A DNA stretch of 64,000 nucleotides from an uncultured Candidatus Saccharibacteria bacterium (GTDB lineage Bacteria > Patescibacteriota > Minisyncoccia > Phycocordibacterales > UBA6899). Shown one piece after another: positions 11,936 through 59,161 of this stretch. The translations under genes and the position numbers were made by a program. The notes beneath the pieces are model-generated. The model was not told the origin of the DNA, did no database searches, and saw only the letters and a list, made by a program, of their open reading frames with translations. How positions within the stretch are numbered: position 1 is the first letter of the stretch; every line of letters begins with the position of its first letter. The stretch is taken from NCBI GenBank assembly GCA_964515375.1, contig CAZERF010000001.1, positions 45,777 to 109,776 on the forward strand, in the 5' to 3' direction.

Positions 11936-12028
11936 AATGAGTTCTTAAAAATCATTTCCCCACCATTACCCTAGTATATTATACTATAATAGTCGTGTAT
12001 AATGTAATAGTTGGGTATAATTGTGGAT

Positions 12029-12232
12029 ATGAATGAGTCCGCAATGCTCGGCAACAATTTGAAAAGGATTCGCGAAGCGAAAAATATGTCTCAAGGTGAC
12101 ATCATGCGCTCTTTGGGATGTAGTCGTAGTTACATAAGTAATATAGAGAACGGAAAAACTAATCCAACACTTTCAACTATCGCTAAGTTGGCAAAAGCGG
12201 TTGGTGTTCCACTTAATAAGTTATTGCAATAA
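12029..12232 (+). CDS. XRE-family helix-turn-helix transcriptional regulator
   Basis: MNESAMLGNNLKRIREAKNMSQGDIMRSLGCSRSYISNIENGKTNP is a canonical HTH_3 motif. It lies in an AT-rich segment. The TTG at 12011 is an alternative start. Confidence 0.8.
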   Translation: MNESAMLGNNLKRIREAKNMSQGDIMRSLGCSRSYISNIENGKTNPTLSTIAKLAKAVGVPLNKLLQ

Positions 12233-12236
12233 GTTT

Positions 12237-13199: not shown

Positions 13200-13642
13200 A
13201 AACGTCCGTCTCGCTATCCCCGCGGCAAGCCGACGGGGCATTACGCGGGCGGAATCGGGCGTTTTTGCTAGTTAAGGAATCCCCTCCGGTGATACTTTGT
13301 TTAATGTCGCATTCATCCTCGAGGCAAGCCCACGAGGCATTCTGCGACGTTCTAGTAAAAGACATTCGAGTGTCACGAAAAAGATTGGTTTGTATAGCAG
13401 GTTTTTGAAATCGTAATACACTCAACCGAAGCCACTAAGCTCACACACGGAAGCACCGCAGCAGCTCGCGCGAGCGGAGCGAGCGAGCTGTGCGGAGGTG
13501 CTGGAGTGTAGTGAGCGAACGTTAGAATCACCACGCAGGTTCGCTACGGGAGAGCGCCTCGCACGCCGCGAGTACGGAGAAAAGCGAAGTGGAAGACTCT
13601 CAAATAAAATGGGAACTGAAACAAAGCTTTTTGGAGGACAAA

Positions 13643-13884
13643 GCGGCGATCCCAAAACAAAGAAATATCCTTTCCTTTTTCTGTCGGCTCCTCCCCACAC
13701 CCCTCCACCGAAAAAATGATTGTAAGGATATTTCTTTGGTTTTGGGAGCCGAGCTGGCGAGGCAGCGAGGCGCGCAGACATTTCCGAATGCGTACGCTTC
13801 GCGTTCGCATCACCACGCGCTCCGCGCGGCACGATCATTGTCCTTTCTCGAAATGGGTTCGAGCAAAGGTCAGTATTTCTGCAC
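13643..13884 (+). repeat. Inverted repeat IR2, right copy
   Basis: Reverse complement of 11695-11935. Confidence 0.85.
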
Positions 13885-13918
13885 TTTTTCTTTCTTTCCC
13901 TCATGCTATAATAAACAG

Positions 13919-14216
13919 CATGGCGATATCAGAAGAAAGCGCGCATGACAAGCTCGACGAGGTGCTTGAGCTCGTTCGTGAGAACAACAAAATCCTCCGC
14001 ACAATGCATCGCCGTATGTTGTGGAGTCAGGTCTTTACTTTTGTATACTGGATCATCATTCTCGGCGTTGCGGGTTGGGCGTATTACTATTTCCAGCCGT
14101 ATGTTGAGCGTTATGTGAACACGTATCAGGCGATCGTCGGCAATCTTGAGAATCTTGATAGTCAAGGGACGGATTTCCCCAGTGAGCTCAAGTCGCTTCT
14201 TGATAAAGTAAGGTAA
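13919..14216 (+). CDS. Small membrane protein, hypothetical
   Basis: The ATG is at 13919, just past IR2-right (MAISEESAHDKLDEVLELV...). There is one TM helix, VFTFVYWIIILGVAGWAYYYF. The longer track ORF from 13716 would read through the repeat. Confidence 0.5.
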
Positions 14217-39741: not shown

Positions 39742-40401
39742 TCATTGATAGGTGACCCCGAAGCTTTCAACGGAACCGGGATGGAGCGCGACCGAGGAAA
39801 TGGGGAAGAGACGCAAGAGTGCTTCGCCGTTCATGAGTCTTGTGGGGACGGGGCCCCAGATACGTGAATCGGAGCTTTGCGCGCGATTGTCTCCCATCAC
39901 AAAGAACTCATCATTGTCGAGCGTGCGGGAGAGGTTGTCGTTCTTGCGATTTTGCACATATGGTTCTTCGAGGACAAGCGGGGTGGTTCGTGTTGCGCTA
40001 GTGATCGAAACGACACCGTTTCTGATCGTGACCGTTTCGCCGGGGAGTCCGATCACGCGTTTGATGAAATATTTTGACGGGTCGTTTGGATAGCGAATGA
40101 TCACGACATCTCCGCGATGGTATTCGCCAAAGTATTTAATGGTCTCGTTGACGATGAGGTACTCCCCGTTGTGGTAGGTGGGGTACATAGAGTTCCCCGA
40201 CACAATGAAGGGTTGCGCAATGAAGATGCGGACCGGCACGATGATCACAAGGGCGACGAGCGCGTATTTGATCGTTTCCCATACGACTTCGAGCCATGAT
40301 GATTCTCCTGCCGGGTCATTTTCGTTGTGGTGCCCGCTCCCGGTCTTGGAAGGCAGCGAAGTGTCGCGGAGATTCTCAGTCTCGTTATTGTGCGCGTTCA
40401 T
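39742..40401 (-). CDS. lepB: Signal peptidase I
   Basis: There is an N-terminal TM helix. GNSMYPT is the Ser box. GDNR and the other conserved boxes are present. Confidence 0.9.
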   Translation of the reverse strand: MNAHNNETENLRDTSLPSKTGSGHHNENDPAGESSWLEVVWETIKYALVALVIIVPVRIFIAQPFIVSGNSMYPTYHNGEYLIVNETIKYFGEYHRGDVVIIRYPNDPSKYFIKRVIGLPGETVTIRNGVVSITSATRTTPLVLEEPYVQNRKNDNLSRTLDNDEFFVMGDNRAQSSDSRIWGPVPTRLMNGEALLRLFPISSVALHPGSVESFGVTYQ

Positions 40402-40473: not shown

Positions 40474-41994
40474 CTAGATTCCGTAGATGGTTGGAAGCAT
40501 GGAAAGTGAAGTTGCAATAATGAAGATGATCGAAAGGATGAAGAGGACACGAGGAAGGAGGCGGTCCTTAGTGAGTAGGGTCAAGCAGCGCAACAGTCGT
40601 GGCGCGGCGTAGGGTAAAAGGAGGAAGAGAAAAAGTAGCGCTGTAAAGTAGTGATAGAGGAACATTGAACGATCAATGAGGAAGAAGGGAACATAGTTGG
40701 CGAGGTATCCAACAATGAGAAGTGTTTCATTGCGTCCGATAGGCCACTTTTTTTGTATCATCACGACCGCCCCGATCCAGAGGATGTTGAAGATGAAACA
40801 TAGGAGCGCAATGTTCCAGAGAAATGCGTTTCCGCGAAAGATGATCTGCGCGGGGCGATCGTCGGGAAGCCATGTGAACAATTGCGCCTTTGCAATCGAC
40901 CATGAGAGTGGGTGTGGGGCCTTCGGAAGGAATGCTGACGCGTTGGGGTCCGTATTTGCTTCCCATATCGCACGATGGAGGTCACCCACAAAGAGGATCT
41001 TCTCGTACACTCCCGCATCTCTCGGGAGTGAAAGCGACTCAACGTACGAGAAACGATACGTATCAAGTACGGGGTCGACGGGTCCTCCTTTGGGGAAATA
41101 ATCAAGGAAGTAAAAGAATGACAAAAAGTAAATGAATATCGTTATGACCCCGATCGCGACCGCTTCGCCGATCTTGCGCTCCGAAAGGAAAAAGAGTCCG
41201 ATCACGCCAAGCATGCCGAGCGCGACCCATTTGACACTCACTGCTGCGCCGATCAGAATACCTGCCAATATGACCAGGAGGTAACGCACGGTCTTCTTTT
41301 TTTCTCGCAAGGCGAGGACGGCGACGAGAAGGGCGGAAAATTCAAGGAGAATCATGAGCGAATCCGGAAGGATCGTTCGTGAGTAGACAATGAGCGCCGG
41401 TTCGAGTGCGACAAAAAATCCGATGAGTCCCGCGACCATGCGTGACGAGCCGAGTGCGCGCGCGAGCGCGAAGAGTACGAGAGGGATGAGAATACCGAGT
41501 ATCGCCGTTCCTGTACGTAATGGGACGTAGGGGAAGTCTAGGAATGTTTTTGTTTCCGCGACTGTGCGCGTGAATGCGAGCGTGTATGGGGATAGGTCTT
41601 GTGTAAGGAATATCTCGGTCATCATGATCCGAGCAAGTGGCGGATGAATGTCGAAATAGACATTCCCCCCCGCGGAGAGCAGAGTGAACGCGGAATAGAT
41701 CCGCTCGTCAAAGATCGGTTCGTTGGGATGGTCCAGTGCGGGGAAACGGAGAAGTATGCTGACGAGAAGCAGTGCAAGGATCAGGAGTAGGTCTTTCTTT
41801 CTCTCGGAAAAAGGGGGGGAATGTTGCAGGGTGTGACGGGCGAAATGCTTACCGGTGCTTAGGCTGTGCCGTATTCTCGCAAGTATACGATCTGAGAACT
41901 TCTTCTTGTGTGTGGTCATGTAAAGAGATTTGCTATAATGGAGCGTGCCTGTATTTGCGTTCATCATAACAAACCTGGACGATCTTGGCATCAT
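40474..41994 (-). CDS. GT-C fold glycosyltransferase, family 39-like (protein O-mannosyltransferase/ArnT-like)
   Basis: The 506-aa polytopic ORF has a DERIY (DE motif) in the first periplasmic loop and HPPL shortly after, the hallmark pair of PMT/GT39-type enzymes. Confidence 0.65.
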   Translation of the reverse strand: MMPRSSRFVMMNANTGTLHYSKSLYMTTHKKKFSDRILARIRHSLSTGKHFARHTLQHSPPFSERKKDLLLILALLLVSILLRFPALDHPNEPIFDERIYSAFTLLSAGGNVYFDIHPPLARIMMTEIFLTQDLSPYTLAFTRTVAETKTFLDFPYVPLRTGTAILGILIPLVLFALARALGSSRMVAGLIGFFVALEPALIVYSRTILPDSLMILLEFSALLVAVLALREKKKTVRYLLVILAGILIGAAVSVKWVALGMLGVIGLFFLSERKIGEAVAIGVITIFIYFLSFFYFLDYFPKGGPVDPVLDTYRFSYVESLSLPRDAGVYEKILFVGDLHRAIWEANTDPNASAFLPKAPHPLSWSIAKAQLFTWLPDDRPAQIIFRGNAFLWNIALLCFIFNILWIGAVVMIQKKWPIGRNETLLIVGYLANYVPFFLIDRSMFLYHYFTALLFLFLLLPYAAPRLLRCLTLLTKDRLLPRVLFILSIIFIIATSLSMLPTIYGI

Positions 41995-42000
41995 TCACTC

Positions 42001-43386
42001 ATGAAGTTTTCTCTCATTATTCCTATACACAACGAAGTTGCGGTGATCGGACGTACGATCGGTTCATTGCGGGACGTGTTTGACGAATATGTTCCCGAAG
42101 GAGACTCGTGGGAGATCATCGTTGTTGATAATGCGTCGACCGACGGTTCTGTTGAGGTGATACGCGAATACTCCGACCCACGCGTGCGTATCGTGGAACT
42201 TTCTGAAAAGGGGAAAGGACGTGCGGTGCGTGCGGGTTTTTATGCTGCAACGGGTGACGTGATCGGTTTCACCGATGCTGATCTTTCTGTTTCCCCGGAG
42301 ACACTTCTTGCTGCGTTCTTTGCGTGTGCAACGGAGGTCCCTGTTGTCGTCGGCTCGCGTGCTCATCCGGCGAGTGCTCTCCCTGAACGCGAGTGGTGGC
42401 GGACAACCAGCTCTCGCGTCTTCAATCTCATGACACGCGCAATCGTTGGTGTGCGTGTTTCTGATACGCAGTGTCCGCTCAAGGTTCTTCGGCGAGAACA
42501 TCTTCCGTTCATTCTTCTTTCCGTTGATCAGACTTGGTATTTTGATATTGAATTCTTTGCCTTACTCGAGCGTTCCAGTGTCCCCTTTGCGGAAATTCCT
42601 GTTCAGTGGGAGGAACATCGGTATCCCGAACGCAAGAGTAAGTTGAGTACAGTGCGCGACGGTGCTCGGTCGATACCGGCGATGATGCGTATTCGACGGA
42701 GACTCCGGGGACAGCTGGCGGAACTTGCAAAAACACACCATAATGATGCTCATATGCAATGGATCATTGTTGGGTTGGGAAATCCGGGAGGAGAATACGC
42801 GCGCACTCGTCACAATGCGGGGCGGATCGTTCTTGAAGCACTGCGACAACGAATGGGGTGGGGTCCGTGGGAATATCGAAAGACTCATGACGCGCTCATC
42901 GCGCACGGGGACCTTGCGGGACACTCGATACTTTTGGTTGAACCCGAGACGTACATGAACGCATCAGGGAAAAGTTTGGTTTCGCTCGTGAAGGATCCCG
43001 ACCATGCGACACGGCTTGTCGTTATTCATGACGATGTGGATCTTCCGTTGGGGGAATGGCGATTTGCGTATGAACGAGGATCGGGAGGGCAGAAAGGCAT
43101 TGAGTCGATCATGTCCACATTGCGCACTCGCGCATTCGTTCGTGTGCGTATCGGTGTTGCGCCGACATTGGAAGAGGGAAAAAAACGGAAGAAGGCGGGG
43201 GATATGGTCTTGGAGAAGTTTCGTGAAGAAGAGCTGGCGCGCATCGAGCATATCGGTAAGGGGGATCAGCTTTCCGAAGCCCTCACATCGCTTGTTGTTG
43301 ACGGGCTCGAACTCTCCCGAAGCAAATGGAAGAAGTGGAAAGACAACCCTTCCGCTCATGAGGGGAAGGGGCTCAATCTTCTTTGA
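42001..43386 (+). CDS. pth: In-frame fusion: GT2 polyprenyl-phosphate sugar synthase (DPM1/GtrB-like) + peptidyl-tRNA hydrolase
   Basis: The N-terminal ~250 aa has IPIHNE, VVDNASTDGS and FTDADLS (DxD), a GT2 DPM1-like domain. The C-terminal ~190 aa has MQWIIVGLGNPGGEYARTRHNAG...VIHDDVDLPLG, the Pth signature. There is no stop between them. The start was taken at ATG 42001 (MKFSLIIP). The track begins at 41908. Confidence 0.8.
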   Translation: MKFSLIIPIHNEVAVIGRTIGSLRDVFDEYVPEGDSWEIIVVDNASTDGSVEVIREYSDPRVRIVELSEKGKGRAVRAGFYAATGDVIGFTDADLSVSPETLLAAFFACATEVPVVVGSRAHPASALPEREWWRTTSSRVFNLMTRAIVGVRVSDTQCPLKVLRREHLPFILLSVDQTWYFDIEFFALLERSSVPFAEIPVQWEEHRYPERKSKLSTVRDGARSIPAMMRIRRRLRGQLAELAKTHHNDAHMQWIIVGLGNPGGEYARTRHNAGRIVLEALRQRMGWGPWEYRKTHDALIAHGDLAGHSILLVEPETYMNASGKSLVSLVKDPDHATRLVVIHDDVDLPLGEWRFAYERGSGGQKGIESIMSTLRTRAFVRVRIGVAPTLEEGKKRKKAGDMVLEKFREEELARIEHIGKGDQLSEALTSLVVDGLELSRSKWKKWKDNPSAHEGKGLNLL

Positions 43387-50561: not shown

Positions 50562-50657
50562 TTTCATCGTGCCCGTTGACTGCTTCAAAAATTCATGACA
50601 TGGTGAGAGTTATCCACTATTCTCTGTGTGATAGGGGGGTGGTATACTGAAGAAACC

Positions 50658-51242
50658 ATGTTTTCAGCTCCTGAGAAAAACGTAGAGCAGCTTCATCTTG
50701 AACCGCATCAGATCGTCGCTGATTTTGGCGCGGGGAGTGGCGCCTACACGATCGCGGCCGCTCAAGCGCTCGGGGGGACAGGGAAGGTCTATGCGATTGA
50801 TGTTCAGAAGGACCTCTTGACTCGCCTTGCTTCGACGTGCAAGGAGGCACATTTAGGTAATGTCTCTTTTATTTGGGGAAATCTCGAAAAACCGGGCGGC
50901 ACCAAATTGCGCGAACAATCTGTTGACGTGGTCATTGTTTCCAATGTTCTCTTCCAGTCTGAGGATAGAAAGGGTCTTTTAGATGAGGCGCGTCGAGTGT
51001 TACGTCAAGGAGGCACACTCCTTATTGTTGACTGGACGGCGTCATTTGGGAATTTGGGACCCGAACCTTCACAGGTGTTTCCGGAACTCGAAGCACGGAA
51101 GCTTGCGGAGTCATTGAACTTTTCTTTAGATCGTACACTGAATGCCGGGAATTTTCATTATGGACTTATTTTTCGTAAAGGACTCTTTACTACCGCCGCT
51201 TCACATGCAACTCCATCGGTAACCAGTTATTCTCCACGCTGA
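50658..51242 (+). CDS. Class I SAM-dependent methyltransferase
   Basis: Motif I is VADFGAGSGAYT. Motifs II/III follow. The ATG at 50658 was preferred over the GTG at 50628. Confidence 0.75.
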   Translation: MFSAPEKNVEQLHLEPHQIVADFGAGSGAYTIAAAQALGGTGKVYAIDVQKDLLTRLASTCKEAHLGNVSFIWGNLEKPGGTKLREQSVDVVIVSNVLFQSEDRKGLLDEARRVLRQGGTLLIVDWTASFGNLGPEPSQVFPELEARKLAESLNFSLDRTLNAGNFHYGLIFRKGLFTTAASHATPSVTSYSPR

Positions 51243-51270: not shown

Positions 51271-52581
51271 ATGAATTTTCAATATATCCTTCTTTCGATC
51301 TTTGCGGTTATGGGGGTGATCGCCGTGATCGTTTTCGCAAACCCCCCGGAAAAGGAAGGAAGTGGTGCTATTGCCGGAGCGAAAGGGGAGGTGGTGATAT
51401 GGGGCACGTATCCTGAGAATCAAGTTTCGCAAGTACTGAATAACTTCAACAAAGAGTACGAGGATTCGTTCAAGGTATCTTATAAATATTTTGACTCGAG
51501 TCGTTTTGATACGAGTATCGTTGAGTCGCTTGCGAGCGATCGTGGTCCTGATATTCTCCTTCTCCCGAACGATCTTATCTTGCGTCATTCCGACAAGATC
51601 GAGCTTGTTCCGTATACCGCAATACCCCAGCTCACTTATCAGTCTACCTTTATTGAGGGTGGTGAGATCTTTATGCGTAGCCAAGGTATTGTTGCTATTC
51701 CGTATGCGATCGATCCGATCGTTATGTATTGGAACCGTGACCTCTTCAATAATGCTTCCATAACCCTCCCCCCGAAGTATTGGGAGGAATTGTTGGTCCT
51801 TGCGCCAAAGCTGACCAAACGTGATCTTCGCACACAGAACATCCTGCAGAGCGCCGTTGCCTTTGGTGAATATGAAAATATCACCAACGCAAAGGATGTG
51901 ATTTCTATGCTTTTCTTGCAGACGGGTGTGCAGATCGTTGGAGTAGAGGACGGGGATGTTGTTGCTGATCTTGAGGTGAGTAAGGGGGAGCAGTTGGTCC
52001 CCAACCAGGATGTTGTTTCGGCGCTTCGTTTCTTTATGGACTTCTCTGATCCGCGTAAGGCGAACTACTCATGGAGCCGTGCGTTGCCGTCTTCCCGTGA
52101 ACAGTTCCTGAAAGGGGAACTTGCCATTCATTTTGACTACGCAAGCGCATACGGCACCCTGAAGGAACGCAATCCGCATCTCAATTTTGCGGTTGCAATG
52201 GTTCCTCAAGCAAAAGGAAATACGGTCGAAGTAACCTTCGCGCGCATGCACGGTCTCGCGGTGCTAAAAAGTTCTCAAAACAAACAAACAGCGATGATTG
52301 CTGTGCAGCAACTCCTTCGCTCTGAACATGCCCGTGCGTTTGCAGAGGTGTTTAATCTCCCTCCAGTGCGGCGTGATCTCTTGAATGTTTCTCAGACTGA
52401 TGCATCACGCACAGTTTTCTATGATTCGGCAATACGTGCTCGCACCTGGCTCGACCCTCGGCCTGAAGTTACAGCGACGGCATTTTTGGATATGGTTGAG
52501 GGGGTGTCGTCGGGGAGGTTGAGGGCGGATGACGGTGTTACACTCCTTTCTTCGCGATTGAGAGCTCTTTTGAAACGTTAA
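51271..52581 (+). CDS. Extracellular solute-binding protein (ABC-type, family 1-like), membrane anchored
   Basis: The 436-aa ORF has an N-terminal signal anchor and a periplasmic-binding-protein-like fold pattern. The match is weak. Confidence 0.55.
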   Translation: MNFQYILLSIFAVMGVIAVIVFANPPEKEGSGAIAGAKGEVVIWGTYPENQVSQVLNNFNKEYEDSFKVSYKYFDSSRFDTSIVESLASDRGPDILLLPNDLILRHSDKIELVPYTAIPQLTYQSTFIEGGEIFMRSQGIVAIPYAIDPIVMYWNRDLFNNASITLPPKYWEELLVLAPKLTKRDLRTQNILQSAVAFGEYENITNAKDVISMLFLQTGVQIVGVEDGDVVADLEVSKGEQLVPNQDVVSALRFFMDFSDPRKANYSWSRALPSSREQFLKGELAIHFDYASAYGTLKERNPHLNFAVAMVPQAKGNTVEVTFARMHGLAVLKSSQNKQTAMIAVQQLLRSEHARAFAEVFNLPPVRRDLLNVSQTDASRTVFYDSAIRARTWLDPRPEVTATAFLDMVEGVSSGRLRADDGVTLLSSRLRALLKR

Positions 52582-52592: not shown

Positions 52593-53000
52593 ATGCGTAC
52601 TGTAAATAGGAAATTGATCATATTCTTTCTCTCGTTGGGGTTTGTTTTTGCCCCCTTGGTCTTTGCTGAGGATTCAGGATTAATCCCATGCGGAAATGAT
52701 GTTAAGAATGGTAAGGTAACGGATCCTTGTGGTTACGACGATCTTGTCACACTAGCAAAGAACGTCATTGATTTCCTCATTTTCAAGATCGCTGCACCGC
52801 TCGGGGCTGTTATGTTTGCGTACGCCGGGTTCTTGTATCTCACAAATGGAGGAAACGAATCAAAAATCAAGGAAGCGCACACAATATTCCTCTATGTCTT
52901 TTGGGGGCTTGTTGTCGCACTGGCCGCATGGCTCATTGTGAATTTTGTGTTGACGTTCTTCCTTGGAGAAAGTTCTACCTTTAACTTCCTTGGTGTATGA
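52593..53000 (+). CDS. Small secreted two-helix membrane protein, VirB2/TrbC-pilin-like paralog 1
   Basis: A signal peptide is followed by ~35 aa, TM helix 1 (IAAPLGAVMFAYAGFLYL), the loop TNGGNESKIKEA, and TM helix 2 (IFLYVFWGLVVALAAWLIVNFV). This core motif is shared with the next seven genes. Confidence 0.7.
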   Translation: MRTVNRKLIIFFLSLGFVFAPLVFAEDSGLIPCGNDVKNGKVTDPCGYDDLVTLAKNVIDFLIFKIAAPLGAVMFAYAGFLYLTNGGNESKIKEAHTIFLYVFWGLVVALAAWLIVNFVLTFFLGESSTFNFLGV

Positions 53001-53350
53001 ACCTCTTTTCTCGCCCGGTATTTCGAACTGTCGTGAGTGTGGGTACTTTTTCTTTCCTCTTTGCTCCGCTTGCTCATGCCGGCTCATATACGAATCCGAT
53101 CAAGTATGGTGACATTGAGACTGTTCCTGAATTCCTCTTCGCCTTGGTCGATCTTGTCTTCTTGATCGCAGTACCGCTTATTGTGATTTGTATCATTTAT
53201 TCCGGCTTTCTTTTTGTGACCGCGGGAGACAATGAGTCTCAGATAGGAAAGGCTCGTACGGTCTTTCTTTGGACCCTTATTGGTGCGGCTGTCCTCCTTG
53301 GCGCAAAAGCGATCGCAATGGCGATCCAAAACACGATCGACTCTCTATGA
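52997..53350 (+). CDS. VirB2/TrbC-pilin-like paralog 2
   Basis: It has the same architecture. The loop is TAGDNESQIGKA and TM helix 2 is VFLWTLIGAAVLLGA. There is an ATGA overlap with the neighbouring gene. Confidence 0.7.
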   Translation: MNLFSRPVFRTVVSVGTFSFLFAPLAHAGSYTNPIKYGDIETVPEFLFALVDLVFLIAVPLIVICIIYSGFLFVTAGDNESQIGKARTVFLWTLIGAAVLLGAKAIAMAIQNTIDSL

Positions 53351-53676
53351 AGTGGTACACCCATACAGCACTTGCGCTCTCCCTCTTCCCGCATCTTGCA
53401 TATGCGACGAAGCTTGGACCACCGACAGCTTCACTTGGTGGAACACTTCAGGATTTCATCTACCTGCTGATCAACATCATACAAGCGGTCGGCATCCCGA
53501 TTTTGGTTATCTGCATCATCTATTCGGGGTATTTGCTTGTTTCAGCCGGTGGGAATGAACAGCAGGTAACCAAGGCAAAGTCGTGGATAATCTGGACGCT
53601 TGTAGGTGCCGCGATCATCCTTGGAGCGGAGGTGATCGCAAATCTCATCTTTACTACCGCCGAAGAATTTGAATGA
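53348..53676 (+). CDS. VirB2/TrbC-pilin-like paralog 3
   Basis: The start is ATG 53348 (MKWYTHTALAL). The loop is SAGGNEQQVTKA and TM helix 2 is WIIWTLVGAAIILGA. Confidence 0.7.
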
Positions 53677-53679
53677 TCC

Positions 53680-54027
53680 ATGAATAAAACAAAAAACATC
53701 ATTTACGCAGTGGCAGCACTCTTTCCTTTTGTTGCTCTCGCCACTTCACCATCAACATTTCGAGAGCTCGCTGAGCTTATCGTTGGACTAGTGAAGGGTT
53801 TCGTCGCGATCCTCTTTGCTTCGTTCTCTGTGGCAATGGTGTATGGTGTTGTTGTGTATCTCATGAACGCCGACAATGAGCAAAAGCGTTCGCAGATCAA
53901 GGGGTATTTGTTGTGGGGGATTATCGGTATTACCGTTGCGTTTGGCCTTTGGGGTATCTTGCAGATCATGTGTAACACGCTTGGTTGGGGTCTCTGCGGC
54001 ATTCCGATCATTGAACCCCCCGAATGA
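53680..54027 (+). CDS. VirB2/TrbC-pilin-like paralog 4
   Basis: The loop is MNADNEQKRSQIKG and TM helix 2 is LLWGIIGITVAFGLWGIL. Confidence 0.7.
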   Translation: MNKTKNIIYAVAALFPFVALATSPSTFRELAELIVGLVKGFVAILFASFSVAMVYGVVVYLMNADNEQKRSQIKGYLLWGIIGITVAFGLWGILQIMCNTLGWGLCGIPIIEPPE

Positions 54028-54046
54028 TTACTCACTGTACCACTTC

Positions 54047-54415
54047 ATGATATTTATGAAATCTTTTTTCTTGCTATTATCTCTTTTTGTGCCTTCGTTT
54101 GCCTCTGCCGGAGTGACGGACGTCGAAGATATCTTTTCTTTTCAGGAGCTTCTCTTTCGTCTTCTTATCGCCCTCAATTACTTTCTCTGGGTACTAGCGA
54201 TCGTTGTGTTCATGTGGGGGGTGGTACGTTTTATTGCAAATGCGGACGATGCCGAAGAGAGGGAGAAGGGGAGACACCTTATCATTTGGGGTATCATTTC
54301 TTTTGTTGTATTGCTTTCCTTGTGGGCATTCGTTTCGTTTATCCTTGTGGACACCTTCGGCATTTTTTCGGTTGAAGTTCCTTATGTGAACAAAGACGGA
54401 TTTGTTGTTGAATGA
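54047..54415 (+). CDS. VirB2/TrbC-pilin-like paralog 5
   Basis: The loop is ANADDAEEREKGRH and TM helix 2 is LIIWGIISFVVLLSLWAFV. Confidence 0.65.
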   Translation: MIFMKSFFLLLSLFVPSFASAGVTDVEDIFSFQELLFRLLIALNYFLWVLAIVVFMWGVVRFIANADDAEEREKGRHLIIWGIISFVVLLSLWAFVSFILVDTFGIFSVEVPYVNKDGFVVE

Positions 54416-54522
54416 CCTCAGCTCACTCTCGGCTCACAACACTTTTTCGGGCTTCTTGTGCTGCACCAGCTTTATCTCCGAGCTTTTAAGCTTACCTCAA
54501 ATGAAGGTGCACATGTTTTACG

Positions 54523-54655
54523 TCATCGTTCGGTCGAAGAGCGCATGCGGACATGGCTCTTCTTCCTCACTCGACGTAGTAACCCGTTGTCCACGTCGTC
54601 GTTCGGTCGAAGAGCGCATGCGGACATGGCTCTTCTTCCTCACTCGACGTAGTAA
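54523..54655 (+). repeat. Two tandem ~60-bp repeats, each forming a GAAGAGC...GCTCTTC hairpin
   Basis: TCGTTCGGTCGAAGAGCGCATGCGGACATGGCTCTTCTTCCTCACTCGACGTAGTAA occurs twice, about 72 bp apart, in the paralog 5/6 intergenic region. Confidence 0.7.
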
Positions 54656-54769
54656 TCCACACCCACCCCTTGCGGTGCATTGCTACTTGTTATCTTTAGG
54701 AGTATCATTAGGGAGTAGTTTGGTAAGTGTTCGTTTTAATATTATTAATTATCCAATTTACTTCGGTAT

Positions 54770-55129
54770 ATGAAGAAATTTATTGCAATAGCAATGCTCT
54801 TGGGTCCGACAGCGGCCTTTGCTACCCCGCTTGAGTCGACCTATACGCTTGTTAGTAACTTCCTTAACGCACTGATCCCACTCCTGATCACCCTCGCGGT
54901 CGTTGTCTTCTTCTGGGGTTTGGTCAAGTACATCATGAGCGCCTCTGACGAGGCAGCAAAGGAAGGCGGAAAGAATCTCATGATCTGGGGCATGATCGCC
55001 CTCTTCGTGATGGTGGCGTTCTGGGGTATCATCGGATACTTCCAGCAGTCGCTCGGTCTCTCCGGTTCGATCACGAGCACTGCACCTCCGATGATCGAGC
55101 TCCCGACCTCTGAAGACTTCCAATTCTAA
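54770..55129 (+). CDS. VirB2/TrbC-pilin-like paralog 6
   Basis: The loop is SASDEAAKEGGKN and TM helix 2 is LMIWGMIALFVMVAFWGIIGYF. Confidence 0.7.
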   Translation: MKKFIAIAMLLGPTAAFATPLESTYTLVSNFLNALIPLLITLAVVVFFWGLVKYIMSASDEAAKEGGKNLMIWGMIALFVMVAFWGIIGYFQQSLGLSGSITSTAPPMIELPTSEDFQF

Positions 55130-55211
55130 GGGAACGTTTTGCGGTCTGAAAAACCCCGCCTCCTGCGGGGTTTTTCTTGCTTGCATGTACGAAAGAGGAT
55201 ATAATTCTTTC

Positions 55212-55529
55212 ATGTTACAATTATTTTTCTCCATCGCACATGCCTCTGACACAGAGATACCCTCTAGTGTGAAAGAATTTATCGGTAAGATAAGCACCGA
55301 GATATTGAACCCGATCATTGCGGTCTTGTTTGTCTTGGCAACGTTGTATTTCTTTTATGGTGTTGCGAAGTATCTTTGGGATCCCGAGAATGAGGAGGCG
55401 CGCGAGGGTGGTAGGCGAAGTATGCTTTGGGGTATCGTTGGAATGTTCATTATGGTTTCTGTCTTTAGTATCATGCGATTCCTCATTAGTTCGATCGGCG
55501 CAGATGAGGCATTGATGGACTACGTTTAA
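55212..55529 (+). CDS. VirB2/TrbC-pilin-like paralog 7
   Basis: The loop is WDPENEEAREGGRRS and TM helix 2 is MLWGIVGMFIMVSVF. The ATG at 55185 is an alternative start. Confidence 0.6.
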   Translation: MLQLFFSIAHASDTEIPSSVKEFIGKISTEILNPIIAVLFVLATLYFFYGVAKYLWDPENEEAREGGRRSMLWGIVGMFIMVSVFSIMRFLISSIGADEALMDYV

Positions 55530-55549
55530 TTCTTTTTATTTCAACGCTT

Positions 55550-55849
55550 ATGGACATGGTCGAAGTATTTCAATATCTCATAAAGATGGTTGCGATGCTG
55601 ATCCCGATATTGGTGGGATTTGCGATTGTCGCTTTCTTTTGGGGTATCGTTAAATTCATTGCACACGCTGATGATGAGCGTGCGATTGCGGAAGGGAAGC
55701 TCTTCATCGTCTGGGGGTTGGTCGGACTTTTTGTTCTTGTTTCTTTTTGGGCTCTTGTCGGTTACATTCAAGAAACGATCGGGGTTGAGGAGGCACTTTC
55801 GCTCGGAAATCTCTCACAGCAAAAAACAGAGATTCCCGTCCCTGATTAG
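55550..55849 (+). CDS. VirB2/TrbC-pilin-like paralog 8 (core-only form)
   Basis: TM helix 1 is MVAMLIPILVGFAIVAFFWGIVKFI, the loop is AHADDERAIAEGK and TM helix 2 is LFIVWGLVGLFVLVSFWALVGY. It lacks the N-terminal pre-domain. Confidence 0.65.
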   Translation: MDMVEVFQYLIKMVAMLIPILVGFAIVAFFWGIVKFIAHADDERAIAEGKLFIVWGLVGLFVLVSFWALVGYIQETIGVEEALSLGNLSQQKTEIPVPD

Positions 55850-55875
55850 TACTTTTTCCTAGATTTCAAAAAAAG

Positions 55876-55910
55876 AACGCCGAGGTATTGCCTCGGCGTT
55901 TTCGAAAAGA
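55876..55910. terminator. Bidirectional terminator
   Basis: AAAAAAAGAACGCCGAGG-tatt-GCCTCGGCGTTTTCGAAAAG. Confidence 0.65.
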
Positions 55911-55918
55911 ACTTGGTT

Positions 55919-57412
55919 TTAGTTGACGATGACCTTGTACATGGCGTACAGCTCTTGATCCTTGAATAGCTGGATCCAGCGTACGCCATTTTGGTCGGTA
56001 AGGAGATTGGCGGGACCACGCACTCCGGGGTCGTGCTCGAAGAATCCGGGCCGAACCTCTTTTTGGGCATAGTGCTGCCTCCATGTGGTGCCGCAGCCGC
56101 GCATCCCATCGGGAAACTCGGTGTCGCAGGGGTAGGGGATCTCGATGATGAAATCCTTGTATTCTGCATCCGGGTCCCTGGCGATGATGATCGTCGGTTT
56201 GGTGCCGTCACCTCGGGCGATCCCAAGGAAGGGAATTGGGCGTTTGCCTTGTGCCGATCCTTGCATGATTTCAAACCCAAGACCGAGCGTTCCGGTCTCG
56301 CTCACCTCCTTTGCGGTAAGGTGTCCCCATTCGTCCCGAGTGATGAAACTCGATCTGAACTGGGAGACGTTGCCACGTGTCGCGTTTTGTTGCGGTTGCT
56401 CAACGGAGCTCATTCCCGTCATTGCAACCTCGGTGTTGGTGCCGAGGAAATACCACGCACCATAACCGATCGCGATGACGAGGAGGACACGCCCCAGGAT
56501 CTTGTGCTTGATGGCGTACCACAGCACGAGCAGAGCAAAGAGCACCGCACCCGCCCAGATGAATGTCTCTTTTTCAACCCCATCGAGACTCTCGGCACCT
56601 TTCTTTGCAACTTCACCGATCTGAGTCGGCGGAAGTTTGGGTACTCCTTTCCGCACCTCCTCTTCAAGTTTGATCATGGTCTCGAGTTCTTCGCTCGAGA
56701 GCACTTGACCCTTCTCAACTTTCTCCTTGAGACTCTCAAGCGCATCCGCTTTTTGGGTATCAAGGTTTCGCCAAGATTGTTCCCGGATCACTTGTGCTTG
56801 CGTCGCAGTTTCCGACATCTTGAACCAGACCGGATTGATTCCGACACTGGTCCACAGGGTGTGTGGGATTGCAGCGACCACGATCGCGATCAGTAGTGCG
56901 ATACACACGCCGAGCACAGGTTTGTGCCACGGACCACTCGCCATCTTGTTTGTTGCGACCGCATAGATCACGGTCGGAATGATCACAAGCATGACCGCGA
57001 CGGCTGATCCCGCTTGCGCCCATGTGTTCGCCAGGGCGGGGAAGTGGAAGTAAACCGCCATGTAGAACTCTGCCCAGATGAGCACGAGGAATACGATCTT
57101 GGCGACCGCTGCTAGTACTTTTCCGGCATACTTGCCGAAGTCTCCTTCAGCAGGAACGCCGTAGACGGCTCCAGCGATCGCCAGTACTGCTTGATGCTTC
57201 AGCTGGAACCATACCACAAGCCAGAGAATAAAGAATCCGACCTGTGTCACTAAAATGAGCCCTGTGAGCTCGAAATGTGCCATGATCGGCACGCCAACGA
57301 GGATGATGAGGAATGCAGTGAAGAATCCCTCAGTGATCCGGATCCACGCGCGGTCCGCTTCGTGTGCGGTCCATGTGGCAAGTCCGGGGATAAGTCTAAC
57401 GAGTGCTTCCAT
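55919..57412 (-). CDS. Large polytopic membrane protein (VirB6/TrbL-like topology?), hypothetical
   Basis: The 497-aa ORF has ~5 N-terminal TM helices, a central coiled-coil-like hydrophilic segment, 2 further TM helices and a ~150-aa soluble C-terminal domain. No motif was recognised. Confidence 0.55.
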   Translation of the reverse strand: MEALVRLIPGLATWTAHEADRAWIRITEGFFTAFLIILVGVPIMAHFELTGLILVTQVGFFILWLVVWFQLKHQAVLAIAGAVYGVPAEGDFGKYAGKVLAAVAKIVFLVLIWAEFYMAVYFHFPALANTWAQAGSAVAVMLVIIPTVIYAVATNKMASGPWHKPVLGVCIALLIAIVVAAIPHTLWTSVGINPVWFKMSETATQAQVIREQSWRNLDTQKADALESLKEKVEKGQVLSSEELETMIKLEEEVRKGVPKLPPTQIGEVAKKGAESLDGVEKETFIWAGAVLFALLVLWYAIKHKILGRVLLVIAIGYGAWYFLGTNTEVAMTGMSSVEQPQQNATRGNVSQFRSSFITRDEWGHLTAKEVSETGTLGLGFEIMQGSAQGKRPIPFLGIARGDGTKPTIIIARDPDAEYKDFIIEIPYPCDTEFPDGMRGCGTTWRQHYAQKEVRPGFFEHDPGVRGPANLLTDQNGVRWIQLFKDQELYAMYKVIVN

Positions 57413-58149
57413 TATTTCCTCCGATCACGAAGAGCGCGAATGCCGTTCTTAACGGCTTGTGCGCCGTAGAGTTCGACATCAACACCACTCCCCATAACCT
57501 TTGCGAAAAGGTAACCGAGCGGTCCAACTTTCATGACTTCCCGTTCGTGCGGAAGAGAATTCAGTATCTTCTCCGCTATTGCGTCGGGTGTGAGCCCGGT
57601 CTTTTTCTGGTACTCTTTCCACTCCTTGACGAGGCGATCTTTTGCCGTGTCTTCGATAAGTCCTCGTGTATGGAGGAGCTCGATCGTTTGCTCGGGTGTG
57701 AGGTCGCTACTTGATGTAATGTCCTTCACAAACACGACCGCCGGATTGTCCTCCGAAAGAGGAGAACGTCCTGTGGTGTGCTCTTCTTTTCCATCTGAGC
57801 CCTTCGAAGAGACTTTCGTCTCTCTCTGGTACTTGTGGGCCCACAGAGCAAGGAGGGCACTAAAGAAACGTTTCTCATTGCGATCCATGGTACCCATGAT
57901 CGCATCAAAGCGCTTCTGCTCCTCTTTGCTCAAAAAGTGATAGATCTCGCCGACGATGATGTTGTCGGCCTTGGACTTCCCGTCGTCCCTTGGCATGAAG
58001 CGTTCGAGCGCTTCAGTCAGCCCTTTCTTTGCGGCACCGCCCGCAGCGGCGACACCAGCCGGGTTTTGGTTCATGCTCTTGAAGAGTAGACCCAGAACGC
58101 CAGCACCTGTTGCGATGTCAGTGATCACTTCACCAAATGACCATCCCAT
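57412..58149 (-). CDS. Hypothetical protein
   Basis: The 245-aa ORF has an N-terminal hydrophobic segment. It is likely translationally coupled with the upstream gene through a 1-nt overlap. Confidence 0.5.
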   Translation of the reverse strand: MGWSFGEVITDIATGAGVLGLLFKSMNQNPAGVAAAGGAAKKGLTEALERFMPRDDGKSKADNIIVGEIYHFLSKEEQKRFDAIMGTMDRNEKRFFSALLALWAHKYQRETKVSSKGSDGKEEHTTGRSPLSEDNPAVVFVKDITSSSDLTPEQTIELLHTRGLIEDTAKDRLVKEWKEYQKKTGLTPDAIAEKILNSLPHEREVMKVGPLGYLFAKVMGSGVDVELYGAQAVKNGIRALRDRRK

Positions 58150-58397
58150 GATCTTTCTCCTTGCAATTGATTGTCAACGATTTTGACCTGGTACCATTGT
58201 AGCATAAAACAACATGAAAGTCAAGTTTTTGGGCACCAAAAATACATTATGAAATAAGGATTTTTTACCAAAAGTAGCAATATTTCAAGCTGGCACAGAA
58301 TCTATCAAAACACCCGAAATGTTTGCTTGCGGTCTATCAGACCCTCTTTTCTCGAGTGAGGCGCTCACGCTCGCTCACTTCGTTGCATTGTTTTACT

Positions 58398-58482
58398 TGG
58401 TGCCCAGGACTGGACTTGAACCAGCACGCCTTTCGGCATCAGCTCCTAAGGCTGACGTGTCTACCAATTTCACCACCTGGGC
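58398..58482 (-). tRNA. tRNA-Leu (anticodon TAG), type II
   Basis: Minus-strand fold. The acceptor stem is GCCCAGG/CCTGGGC. The anticodon stem is TCAGC/GCTGA with loop CTTAGGA. There is a long variable arm. The T arm is GCTGG-TTCAAGT-CCAGT. CCA is encoded. Confidence 0.85.
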
Positions 58483-58743
58483 AATAGCTGCATGGTACCC
58501 GATTGCGCGCAAAAATGGAACAGGGAATCGTCGTTTGAGGTGAGGTGAGGTGCAGGAGGGTGTGTTTCCCGTTCCGGAATCTCTTTGCTCATTCTGTGAA
58601 TTTTCGCGATCACCACAAGAGTACTTCCATTTTTCTAAGCACGCAGACGTGCAAAGAAAAATTGGTCGCCGCGTATCCTACATGGAAGCACGCAGGTGCT
58701 TCCTCGGGTGCACAAACAAAAAACCGCAGAGCGGTTTTTCTTG

Positions 58744-58816
58744 TGCCCCCGGTAGGATTCGAACCTACGACCGTCTCGTTAAGAGCGAGCTGCTCTACCA
58801 ACTGAGCTACGAGGGC
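58744..58816 (-). tRNA. tRNA-Lys (anticodon CTT)
   Basis: The acceptor stem is GCCCTCG/CGGGGGC. The anticodon loop is CTCTTAA. The T arm is GTAGG-TTCGAAT-CCTAC. A hairpin plus T-run sits downstream at 58720-58738. Confidence 0.85.
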
Positions 58817-58864
58817 AATTTCTGAACCATGCCATTCTAACAAATCAATATTGAAATGCAAGAG

Positions 58865-58945
58865 TGCCCGGGGCCGGACTCGAACCGGCAAGCCTTGCGG
58901 CGGGAGATTTTAAGTCTCCTGTGTTTACCATTTCACCACTCGGGC
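58865..58945 (-). tRNA. tRNA-Leu (anticodon TAA), type II
   Basis: The acceptor stem is GCCCGAG/CCCGGGC with one mismatch. The anticodon stem is GGAGA/TCTCC with loop CTTAAAA. The T arm is GCCGG-TTCGAGT-CCGGC. Confidence 0.75.
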
Positions 58946-59089
58946 GCACACGTTCTTCCCATCATTGCCGTGCTCTGAAGACGGGCGAGAATCTTGACTG
59001 CCGTTGCGAGAAGTCTTCGAGCATGGAGACTCAGCAACGAAAGCACGCTTGATCCTCATTGGAATTGAAGCGGTTCAGTTCCTCCCGTG

Positions 59090-59161
59090 AGGCACGGGCG
59101 GGAATCGAACCCGCGCATGTCGGTTTTGCAGACCGAAGCGTTACCACTTCGCCACCGTGCC
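59090..59161 (-). tRNA. tRNA-Cys (anticodon GCA)
   Basis: The acceptor stem is GGCACGG/CCGTGCC with discriminator U. The anticodon stem is TCGGT/ACCGA with loop CTGCAAA. The T arm is GCGGG-TTCGATT-CCCGC. Confidence 0.85.

What the first reader, a model, noticed from the sequence alone, without database searches (positions are those of the whole stretch)
52593..58149. Tandem array of eight paralogous small two-helix secreted proteins (VirB2/TrbC-pilin-like) next to a 497-aa polytopic membrane protein
Eight consecutive same-strand genes (99-135 aa) share a core of hydrophobic helix, acidic/lysine-rich loop (G/A-D-N/D-E-x-x-x-K-x-G-K/R) and a second hydrophobic helix with a W-G-hydrophobic-hydrophobic-G motif. 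Seven of them also have a signal peptide and a short variable pre-domain. This is the size and topology of T4SS pilins (VirB2/TrbC) and of the putative T4SS pilins reported from CPR genomes. The array is followed on the opposite strand by a VirB6-like multi-TM protein and a hypothetical partner. No VirB4/VirD4 ATPase is in the window. This may therefore be a diversified pilin or surface-appendage repertoire, possibly undergoing gene conversion (a 60-bp tandem hairpin repeat sits between paralogs 5 and 6), or a family-specific membrane module of unknown function.
Basis: partly seen in the sequence, partly recalled or inferred. Interest (0 to 1): 0.75.

Follow-up and report, generated by a model that had tools for sequence, protein, structure and literature searches.

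The report
Conserved VirB2-like pilin gene array
Eight small neighbouring genes in this ultra-small (Patescibacteria) bacterium encode old, distinct copies of a known conjugation-type pilin family; such arrays are already described, so this is a good new example and not a new kind of system.

Summary
Eight same-strand genes (52593-55849) encode 99-135 aa two-helix proteins. Seven pass Pfam's cut-off for PF18895 (T4SS_pilin), the eighth misses it narrowly, and one also passes TrbC/VirB2.

Tandem VirB2-like pilin arrays in Patescibacteria are already published (Wang 2023; Quinonero-Coronel 2025), so the kind is known.

New here:
- **Conserved synteny.** In 48 of 53 related Paceibacteria species the order gyrA, methyltransferase, solute-binding-like protein, pilin array is kept. 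No VirB4 lies nearby.
- **Old, ordered paralogs.** Each window copy has a same-position orthologue in close relatives (49-76% identity, against 13-39% between paralogs). No DNA tracts are shared between paralogs. This argues against recent gene conversion and for non-redundant subunits.
- **The 497-aa neighbour is not detectably VirB6.** It matches nothing in Pfam, NCBIfam or PDB sequences, and its structure model is unusable. It is transcribed convergently behind a shared terminator and occurs only in the closest lineages.
- **A mosaic cassette.** The 497-aa gene's N-terminal part and its 245-aa partner are replaced between closely related strains.

A VirB4 machine elsewhere in this genome is inferred, not shown. 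Moderate-to-low interest: a new member of a known kind.

The parts
50628..51242 (+). SAM-dependent methyltransferase (204 aa), a conserved upstream neighbour (gyrA, MT, SBP, array)
   Evidence: Pfam Methyltransf_11/25/31. An orthologue sits in the same position in 60 or more relatives. No functional link to the array is shown.
51271..52581 (+). Solute-binding-protein-like gene (436 aa, one N-terminal TM anchor). It lies directly upstream of pilin 1 (11-bp gap) and is probably in the same operon.
   Evidence: Pfam SBP_bac_8 75.5 bits, SBP_bac_1 49.6 bits. TM segment at 5-23. The first pilin ORF starts within 35 bp of, or overlaps, the SBP gene end in 51 of 57 relatives.
52593..53000 (+). Pilin paralog 1 (135 aa). 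It has the longest N-terminal extension, with two Cys.
   Evidence: PF18895 36.3 bits. Positional orthologue at array position 1 in relatives, 60-65% identity. Best match to the position-1 HMM.
52997..53350 (+). Pilin paralog 2 (117 aa). Its start overlaps the stop of paralog 1 by 4 bp.
   Evidence: PF18895 30.2 bits. Orthologue at position 2, 57-76% identity.
53347..53676 (+). Pilin paralog 3 (109 aa, revised start). It overlaps the stop of paralog 2 by 4 bp.
   Evidence: PF18895 39.9 bits and PF04956 TrbC/VirB2 35.6 bits, both above cut-off. Orthologue at position 3, 56-66% identity.
53680..54027 (+). Pilin paralog 4 (115 aa)
   Evidence: PF18895 29.6 bits. NF045849 pilin-like conjugal transfer protein 30 bits, below cut-off. 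Orthologue at position 4.
54047..54415 (+). Pilin paralog 5 (122 aa, revised start)
   Evidence: PF18895 42 bits. NF045849 37.6 bits against a cut-off of 40. Orthologue at position 5.
54520..54658 (.). Two tandem copies of a 66-nt hairpin-forming unit (period 73 bp) in the 354-bp spacer between paralogs 5 and 6
   Evidence: TRF score 265, 98% match. Direct repeat family D1. Unique in the window. Hairpin -26.5 to -30.5 kcal/mol, z -2.9 to -5.1. The unit is 92-94% conserved in L090 and L001. No Rfam match.
54770..55129 (+). Pilin paralog 6 (119 aa)
   Evidence: PF18895 40.2 bits. AlphaFold model: helix 2-18 (signal), 21-56, loop, 61-94; core pLDDT 82-90. Orthologue at position 6.
55185..55529 (+). 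Pilin paralog 7 (114 aa)
   Evidence: PF18895 25.2 bits, just below the 26.6 cut-off. Aligns with the other seven. Orthologue at position 7, 68-92% identity.
55550..55849 (+). Pilin paralog 8 (99 aa, no signal peptide)
   Evidence: PF18895 36.2 bits. 99-aa orthologues in L001, L090 and L091.
55876..55900 (.). Bidirectional intrinsic-terminator-like hairpin between the array and the convergent 497-aa gene
   Evidence: 10-bp stem with 7 GC pairs, an A-run upstream and a T-run downstream.
55919..57412 (-). Orphan 497-aa membrane protein: 5 N-terminal TM segments, a helical linker, 2 TM segments, and a beta-rich C-terminal domain with conserved Cys
   Evidence: TM segments. No Pfam, NCBIfam, PADLOC, PHROGs or PDB match. 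33 profile hits among 1.84 billion representatives. Same syntenic slot in L001, L002, L003, L083, L085, L090 and L091.
57412..58149 (-). 245-aa hypothetical partner, with no TM segment. Its last base is the first base of the 497-aa gene's start codon (1-bp overlap at 57412).
   Evidence: The only hit at 5.8 billion sequences is itself. 95.5% identical in L090, 39% in L002, 31% in L091, and not detectable by BLASTP in L001. No hhalign similarity to the SPFH proteins of distant relatives.
56577..58146 (.). Strain-variable cassette: the partner gene plus the first ~278 codons of the 497-aa gene
   Evidence: L001 DNA is 84% identical to window 54628-56577 and 80% identical to 58146-58524, with no DNA match between. 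L091 switches at 57091 and L090 has a divergent internal block at 56366-56760.

Best explanation
The eight genes are an ancient, ordered set of paralogous VirB2/TrbC-type pilin-like proteins (Pfam PF18895) in the core chromosome of a Paceibacteria (Parcubacteria-group Patescibacteria) bacterium.

**Shown**
- Family membership by Pfam score.
- Two-helix hairpin topology.
- Tight gene packing directly behind a membrane-anchored solute-binding-like protein.
- Conservation of the order gyrA, methyltransferase, SBP, array across the class.
- One-to-one positional orthologues for every paralog in the nearest relatives.
- Faster change in the N- and C-terminal extensions than in the hairpin core.

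**Inferred**
- Seven proteins are exported by Sec and cut at AxA sites by signal peptidase I, which is encoded at 39742-40401.
- They sit as two-helix hairpins in the membrane with both ends outside.
- They are drawn on by a VirB4-type monoderm T4SS encoded elsewhere in the genome to build a pilus or stalk-like envelope structure used in contact with a host cell.
- Because each position is conserved separately, the paralogs most likely have distinct, non-interchangeable roles (major and minor subunits) and are not a shuffling repertoire of variants.

The 497-aa and 245-aa genes are a separate, convergent, lineage-restricted and recombining unit. Their role is unknown and no link to the pilins is shown beyond adjacency.
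For: **Family**
- PF18895 above cut-off for 7 of 8 genes; PF04956 above cut-off for gene 3.
- Sub-threshold hits of 7 of 8 to NF045849, the pilin-like conjugal transfer protein of mycoplasma ICEs.

**Fold and topology**
- AlphaFold hairpin with core pLDDT 82-90.
- Two strong hydrophobic segments per protein.

**Operon structure**
- 4-bp overlaps and 3-20-nt gaps within genes 1-5 and 7-8; an 11-nt gap after the SBP gene.

**Synteny**
- 48 of 53 species-representative loci with at least 6 kb downstream of gyrA carry 3 or more pilin ORFs on the same strand.
- The SBP gene end abuts pilin 1.

**Age and order of the paralogs**
- p1-p8 map to positions 1-8 in L003/L083; p1-p7 to positions 1-7 in L085; p1-p6 in L008; and p1-p5 in L009, at 40-76% identity (49-76% in the eight-gene arrays), against 13-39% between paralogs.
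- Position-specific HMMs from 31 five-gene arrays assign p1 to position 1, p2/p3 to position 2, p6 to position 4 and p7 to position 5.
- No DNA tracts are shared between paralogs.
- Among orthologues, the core is 70% identical, the N-extension 48% and the C-tail 53%.

**Literature**
- An essential six-gene array of divergent VirB2-like pilins sits in the T4SS cluster of Southlakia epibionticum (PMC10633639; PMC12857230).
- 441 arrays of 2-11 pilin genes, mean identity 25%, are reported in Patescibacteria; VirB4 is found in 2,417 of 3,035 assemblies (PMC12102498).
- T4SS pilins are among the most highly expressed genes of unknown function in cultured Paceibacteria (PMC10936435).
- Relatives that carry the same array (LiPW_30 and C7867-004) are scored VirB4-positive.
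Against: - No VirB4, VirD4, VirB3, TrsD or VirB6 lies in the 64-kb window or just beyond its right end. The machine is therefore inferred, not seen.
- Two relatives with the array (GW2011_GWC2_48_17 and Kaiserbacteria RIFCSPHIGHO2_01_FULL_46_22) are listed as VirB4-negative. These are incomplete MAGs, so this is not decisive.
- The fold search gave no significant match (best E 0.6). A helical hairpin is too generic to discriminate.
- No pilus made of these proteins has been observed in any Patescibacteria.
- Signal-peptide cleavage was read from sequence, not predicted with a dedicated tool.
- The role of the co-transcribed SBP-like protein is unexplained by a pilus model.
Confidence: 0.6

Rival explanations
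1. VirB4-independent membrane module. The five to eight two-helix proteins and the co-transcribed solute-binding-like protein form a membrane or surface complex of their own, for example for capturing or taking up host-derived compounds. It would be unrelated to T4SS-driven filament assembly.
For: - The SBP-pilin adjacency is near-universal in Paceibacteria relatives.
- The array is detached from any VirB4 in the window.
- In another Paceibacteria genome, separate PF18895 genes flank virB4 itself (Table S3 of PMC12102498), so that cluster has pilins of its own.
- Two array-bearing relatives are scored VirB4-negative.
Against: - The family is homologous to VirB2/TrbC pilins.
- In Saccharibacteria the equivalent array lies inside the T4SS cluster and is essential together with it.
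- No permease or ATPase partner for the SBP lies next to the operon.
- MAG incompleteness can explain the VirB4-negative genomes.
Confidence: 0.2
2. Variation repertoire. The paralogs are interchangeable variants of one pilin, diversified by duplication and gene conversion to evade recognition or to match different hosts.
For: - Low identity within the array (13-39%).
- The exposed termini are more variable than the core.
- Array size differs between lineages, 4 to 8 genes.
- There is precedent in Bartonella and Anaplasma VirB2 paralogs (cited).
Against: - Strict one-to-one positional orthology, with much higher identity between species than between paralogs.
- Conserved gene order across the class.
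- No shared DNA tracts between paralogs.
- All genes are intact and tightly packed in one or two transcription units. They are not silent cassettes.
Confidence: 0.1
3. Mini T4SS locus. The 497-aa polytopic protein is a highly diverged 'extended VirB6' that works directly with the pilin array, with the 245-aa protein as an accessory.
For: - Polytopic topology with large hydrophilic domains resembles extended VirB6 proteins (description in PMC12857230).
- Members of this family always sit convergent to the pilin array wherever they occur.
Against: - No TrbL/VirB6 or other profile match for any of the 32 family members.
- No PDB sequence match.
- Separate convergent transcription unit.
- Absent from all of the gyrA-anchored relative loci except L003, where an SPFH/Band-7 protein and a variable small membrane protein occupy the slot.
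- A recognisable VirB6 lies next to virB4 in a Paceibacteria genome.
Confidence: 0.07

Closest known systems
VirB2-like pilin arrays of Patescibacteria (Southlakia epibionticum ML1 SEML1_0006-0019 cluster; the TM7x 'Sec secreted array'; the 441 arrays surveyed in PMC12102498)
   Same: Same Pfam family (PF18895/PF04956). Tandem same-strand genes. The gene count of 8 falls within the reported 2-11. Within-array identity of 13-39% matches the reported mean of 25%. Sec-type signal peptides. Chromosomal, with no relaxase nearby.
   Different: The array is not in or beside a virB4 cluster. It follows gyrA, a methyltransferase and a solute-binding-like gene, and that order is conserved across Paceibacteria. 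The positional orthology of each paralog and the SBP linkage are not mentioned in the papers I read.
VirB2/TrbC/TraA conjugative pilins of Gram-negative T4SS (Pfam PF04956)
   Same: Small size, a cleaved N-terminal leader, a two-helix hairpin with a short charged loop, and (for gene 3) a score above the family cut-off.
   Different: The host is a monoderm. There are eight divergent copies instead of one. No VirB5, VirB1 or cyclisation/acetylation partners are seen. Seven of the eight score below the PF04956 cut-off.
VirB2 paralog clusters of Bartonella and Anaplasma phagocytophilum
   Same: Tandem amplification and divergence of VirB2-type pilin genes in a host-dependent bacterium.
   Different: Those are interpreted as antigenic or host-range variants. 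Here each paralog has a conserved positional orthologue and there is no sign of exchange between copies.
Mbov_0395-family pilin-like conjugal transfer protein of mycoplasma ICEs (NCBIfam NF045849)
   Same: A small two-helix membrane protein of a monoderm conjugation system. Seven of the eight genes give hits of 18-37.6 bits.
   Different: All hits are below the 40-bit cut-off, so these are not members. That protein is a single-copy gene within an ICE.
Extended VirB6/TrbL proteins (compared with the 497-aa neighbour)
   Same: Five or more TM helices plus large hydrophilic domains.
   Different: No sequence or profile similarity, not next to virB4, and present only in a narrow lineage with a mosaic N-terminal half.

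Membership tests
Pfam PF18895 T4SS_pilin | Whole-protein score at or above the curated gathering cut-off (26.6 bits) | tested here: met
   Seven of eight score 29.6-42.0 bits. Paralog 7 scores 25.2 bits, just below, but aligns with the others and has PF18895-positive orthologues.
Pfam PF18895 T4SS_pilin | Two hydrophobic helices joined by a short polar loop (helical hairpin) | tested here: met
   Hydropathy segments in all eight. AlphaFold model of paralog 6: helices 21-56 and 61-94, pLDDT 82-90.
Pfam PF04956 TrbC/VirB2 pilin | Score at or above the gathering cut-off (27.9 bits) | tested here: inconclusive
   Met by paralog 3 only (35.6 bits). Paralogs 1, 2 and 7 score 21.8-22.5 bits and the others give no hit.
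Pfam PF04956 TrbC/VirB2 pilin | N-terminal leader removed by signal peptidase | tested here: inconclusive
   Seven have a hydrophobic N-terminus ending in an AxA-type motif, read by eye, and signal peptidase I is encoded at 39742-40401. No predictor or experiment was available. Paralog 8 has no leader.
T4SS pilin as a functional class | Encoded with, or dependent on, a VirB4-type ATPase | tested here: not met
   No VirB4/VirD4 lies in the window, just beyond its right end, or within 10 kb of gyrA in 80 relatives. Whether one exists elsewhere in this genome cannot be tested here.
T4SS pilin as a functional class | Polymerises into an extracellular filament | not testable with these tools
   Needs microscopy or biochemistry. 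The monomer fold search was uninformative.
Patescibacteria VirB2 arrays (PMC12102498) | Two or more tandem pilin genes with low mutual identity | tested here: met
   Eight genes at 13-39% identity, against the published 2-11 genes and mean identity of 25%.
Patescibacteria VirB2 arrays (PMC12102498) | Located within about 20 genes of virB4 (Supplementary Fig. S9, ring 5) | tested here: not met
   No virB4 in 52 kb upstream or in the roughly 8 genes downstream that are visible.
VirB6/TrbL (PF04610), for the 497-aa protein | Profile match to TrbL/VirB6 | tested here: not met
   No Pfam hit at E up to 1 for the window protein, and none at E up to 0.01 for any of 32 family members.
VirB6/TrbL (PF04610), for the 497-aa protein | Polytopic membrane protein with five or more TM helices | tested here: met
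   Seven hydropathy segments. This is a generic feature and is not sufficient for membership.
SPFH/Band-7 with membrane partner (the pair found in the same slot in distant relatives), for the 245-aa and 497-aa pair | Detectable homology to the SPFH protein or to its small membrane partner | tested here: not met
   hhalign probability 0.3% (partner against SPFH) and 1.9% (small membrane ORFs against the 497-aa family).

The most novel reading that the evidence does not exclude
In Paceibacteria the operon of a solute-binding-like protein plus the pilin array is a class-wide core module that is physically and perhaps functionally separate from the virB4 cluster. About five ancient, non-interchangeable VirB2-like paralogs (expanded to eight here) would build a heteromeric envelope structure that works with a surface-anchored binding protein, for instance to capture material from the host. 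The adjacent strain-variable membrane-protein cassette would be a host- or phage-facing interface under diversifying selection.
Probability: 0.15. Interest if true: 0.65.

Novelty: new member of a known kind. Interest (0 to 1): 0.33.

Why it matters
Patescibacteria depend on host cells. Their T4SS and its pilin array are essential in the one species tested, yet what the pilins build is unknown.

This locus adds three things:
- In the largest class, Paceibacteria, a multi-gene pilin array is a stable core-genome feature with fixed gene order. It is tied to a solute-binding-like protein and not to virB4.
- Each paralog is conserved separately. This points to a multi-subunit structure and away from antigenic variation, and it can be tested by stoichiometry, multimer modelling or cryo-ET.
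- The orphan membrane-protein pair next to the array is replaced between co-occurring strains, which marks a likely surface-interaction hot spot.

Tried and rejected
- **Structure of the 497-aa protein.** The model from its 5-sequence alignment had pLDDT 46 and pTM 0.24, too poor for a fold search. None was run on it.
- **Fold search of the pilin model.** Foldseek against the PDB gave no match at E below 0.6. A hairpin is too generic, so this neither supports nor refutes VirB2 homology.
- **PDB sequence or profile searches.** Nothing meaningful for the pilins, the 497-aa family or the partner.
- **Homologues of the 497-aa protein among GTDB species representatives.** None found. The exact-sequence look-up also failed for the source contig, so the rest of the 239,949-bp contig could not be read and VirB4 could not be sought in this genome.
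- **Is the 245-aa partner a diverged SPFH protein, or the 497-aa N-terminal domain related to the small membrane proteins of distant relatives?** hhalign says no.
- **Defence-system and phage libraries** for the 497/245 pair and their relatives: no hits.
- **Rfam** for the spacer repeat and the whole locus: only the four tRNAs and chance-level hits.
- **Gene conversion among pilins:** rejected.
- **Whether the 2025 survey already catalogued the gyrA-linked arrays.** In the stored part of its Table S3, every PF18895 row is flagged as near virB4. The table is truncated, so I could not settle this.

Full report
**Observation**

The region holds eight consecutive + strand genes. After correcting two starts, they lie at:

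| Paralog | Coordinates | Length |
|---|---|---|
| p1 | 52593-53000 | 135 aa |
| p2 | 52997-53350 | 117 aa |
| p3 | 53347-53676 | 109 aa |
| p4 | 53680-54027 | 115 aa |
| p5 | 54047-54415 | 122 aa |
| p6 | 54770-55129 | 119 aa |
| p7 | 55185-55529 | 114 aa |
| p8 | 55550-55849 | 99 aa |

- They align over a shared core of hydrophobic helix, charged loop and hydrophobic helix.
- Pairwise identity is 13-39%.
- An HMM built from the eight finds no other copy in the window.
- Seven begin with a hydrophobic segment ending in an AxA-type motif. p8 does not, and its orthologues in three related contigs are also 99 aa.
- Genes 1-3 overlap by 4 bp, and the other gaps are 3-55 nt. The exception is a 354-nt spacer between p5 and p6.
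- That spacer holds two copies of a 66-nt hairpin-forming unit with a 73-bp period, not 60 bp.
- A 10-bp-stem hairpin flanked by an A-run and a T-run (55876-55900) separates the array from the convergent 497-aa gene.

**What the small proteins are**

- Seven of eight exceed the curated cut-off of Pfam PF18895 (T4SS_pilin), and p7 misses it by 1.4 bits. p3 also exceeds the cut-off of PF04956 (TrbC/VirB2).
- NCBIfam gives only sub-threshold hits, to the pilin-like conjugal transfer protein of mycoplasma ICEs.
- AlphaFold, run on p6 with the eight paralogs as its alignment, gives a signal helix followed by a helical hairpin with core pLDDT 82-90.
- The Foldseek search of the PDB returned nothing significant, which is expected for so simple a fold.

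**Organism and wider context**

- The window carries housekeeping genes: MurJ, LepA, a class I tRNA synthetase, FtsZ/FtsA, HisRS, GyrA, IF-2, TsaD and signal peptidase I. It contains no VirB4, VirD4 or VirB11.
- The best GyrA matches among GTDB species representatives are Paceibacteria/Parcubacteria-group MAGs, at up to 84% identity.
- The source contig is 239,949 bp in NCBI, but I could not retrieve it.

**A class-wide conserved locus**

- I scanned the 80 GyrA-anchored loci with an HMM of the eight paralogs. Of the 53 loci with at least 6 kb downstream of gyrA, 48 have three or more pilin ORFs on the same strand.
- The methyltransferase and the solute-binding-like protein of the window have orthologues in the same order in more than 60 loci. 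The first pilin ORF starts within 35 bp of, or overlaps, the SBP gene end in 51 of 57.
- No large conserved ORF other than GyrA, IF-2, the SBP and housekeeping genes recurs within 10 kb.
- The array is therefore part of the core chromosome and is not next to virB4.

**Old paralogs in fixed order**

- In the nearest relatives with eight-gene arrays (L003/L083), every window paralog finds its best match at the same ordinal position; in L085 this holds for p1-p7. Identity there is 49-76%. L008 and L009, whose arrays are cut short, agree for positions 1-6 and 1-5.
- Position-specific HMMs from 31 five-gene arrays of more distant species assign p1 to position 1, p2 and p3 to position 2, p6 to position 4, p7 to position 5 and p8 to position 3. 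p4 and p5 are ambiguous.
- A roughly five-gene ancestral order has therefore been expanded to eight in this lineage.
- No DNA tract is shared between paralogs beyond the motif-coding region, which is 62-72% identical.
- Among orthologues the hairpin core is 70% identical, the N-terminal extension 48% and the C-terminal tail 53%. This fits exposed, faster-evolving ends.
- These results argue against a gene-conversion repertoire and for non-redundant subunits.

**What is already known**

- Tandem arrays of divergent VirB2-like pilins are published for Patescibacteria.
  - An essential six-gene array lies inside the T4SS cluster of Southlakia epibionticum (PMC10633639; PMC12857230).
  - 441 arrays of 2-11 genes with a mean identity of 25% were counted in 383 assemblies (PMC12102498). 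A supplementary figure legend of that paper refers to the arrays as 'near virB4'.
- VirB4 occurs in 2,417 of 3,035 assemblies.
- T4SS pilins are among the most highly expressed genes of unknown function in cultured Paceibacteria (PMC10936435).
- The paper's tables bear on Paceibacteria relatives of this window as follows.
  - Three are VirB4-positive: LiPW_30 and C7867-004, where I saw the array, and GW2011_GWC2_42_20, whose held locus ends at the SBP gene before any array could be seen. Two array-bearing relatives are VirB4-negative.
  - One Paceibacteria genome has two separate PF18895 genes flanking VirB3-TrsD-VirB4.
  - Another has a recognisable VirB6 beside virB4.
- The SBP linkage, the gyrA synteny and the positional orthology are not mentioned in the papers I read. 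The stored supplementary table is truncated, so I cannot say they were never catalogued.

**The 497-aa and 245-aa neighbours**

- The 497-aa protein has five N-terminal TM segments, a helical linker, two further TM segments and a beta-rich C-terminal domain with conserved cysteines.
- It has no match in Pfam, NCBIfam, PADLOC, PHROGs or PDB sequences, and neither do 31 relatives.
- A profile search of 1.84 billion representatives found only 33 relatives, most of them sharing only the N-terminal half.
- Wherever I could see the context, the gene sits in the same slot: preceded by a partner gene and convergent to the pilin array.
- In the more distant relatives sampled, the slot instead holds an SPFH/Band-7 protein and a variable small membrane protein. 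Neither is detectably related to the window pair.
- 'VirB6-like' is therefore unsupported. Adjacency is the only link to the pilins.

**Mosaic cassette**

- L001 is 84% identical in DNA to window 54628-56577 and 80% identical to 58146-58524. It has no DNA match in between, that is, across the partner gene and the first ~278 codons of the 497-aa gene.
- L091 switches at 57091, and its partner is 31% identical.
- L090 keeps the partner (95.5% identical) and the N-terminal module, but has a divergent internal block at 56366-56760.
- L090 and L091 come from the same metagenome assembly, so different alleles coexist.
- The partner always changes together with the N-terminal end of the 497-aa protein. 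This could reflect interaction between them, or only physical linkage on the DNA.

**Mechanism proposed**

- Shown: family membership, topology, operon packing, synteny and orthology.
- Inferred:
  - Sec export and signal peptidase I cleavage.
  - A membrane pool of hairpins.
  - Use of that pool by a VirB4-type monoderm T4SS encoded elsewhere to build a pilus or stalk with distinct major and minor subunits.
  - Exposure of the variable termini.
- The role of the SBP-like protein is open.
- The main rival is a VirB4-independent membrane module built around the SBP-like protein.

**Verdict**

This is a real, well-defined feature. The pilin interpretation is correct. The VirB6 and gene-conversion parts are not supported. 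The kind is already known, so this is a new member with some context features worth recording.

Noticed in passing
window 54520-54658: Two tandem copies of a 66-nt imperfect hairpin unit sit in the p5-p6 spacer. The unit is 92-94% conserved in related contigs L090 and L001, both of which end at or within it. A sigma-70-like site (54680-54708) follows it, so paralogs 6-8 may have their own promoter.
   Followed up: partly
window 56366-58168 compared with L001, L090 and L091: Cassette-like replacement between close relatives of the 245-aa gene plus a variable length of the N-terminal part of the 497-aa gene, flanked by DNA that is 80-90% identical. Two alleles coexist in one metagenome assembly (GCA_013565675.1).
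   Followed up: partly
L083 12510-13331; L085 4150-6005; L003 about 19540-20620: In the nearest eight-gene arrays, a fatty-acid-hydroxylase-family gene on the opposite strand (plus a 360-aa ORF in L085) is inserted between pilins 6 and 7. The window has no such insert.
   Followed up: no
L023 17114-18229, L035 17377-18519, L065 18083-19516 and others: In more distant Paceibacteria, the slot between the pilin array and the tRNA/IF-2 region holds an SPFH/Band-7 protein followed by a fast-evolving small membrane protein, convergent to the array.
   Followed up: partly
window 9930-14000: A large serine recombinase gene (9941-11515, -) overlaps tRNA-Arg (9930-10002, +). It is followed by the lowest-GC stretch of the window (43% at 12-14 kb), which contains ORFs with no Pfam match. 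This may be an integrated element.
   Followed up: no
window 18493-23086: Two overlapping large ORFs encode a VWA plus Ig-like protein (422 aa) and a 1,222-aa protein with six Bact_surface_Ig-like repeats. They may be one surface adhesin gene split by a frameshift or by an ORF-calling artefact.
   Followed up: no
window 41908-43386: A single 492-aa ORF combines a family-2 glycosyltransferase domain (residues 35-199) with a complete peptidyl-tRNA hydrolase domain (286-467). This is either an unusual fusion or two genes read as one from an upstream GTG.
   Followed up: no
window 58398-59161: A cluster of four minus-strand tRNA genes (Leu-TAG, Lys-CTT, Leu-TAA, Cys-GCA) lies directly beside the variable 245/497-aa cassette.
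   Followed up: no
L004 and L010: Two close relatives (GyrA 82-84% identical) have no pilin ORFs, SBP or methyltransferase within 10 kb downstream of gyrA. The gyrA linkage is therefore broken in some near lineages.
   Followed up: no
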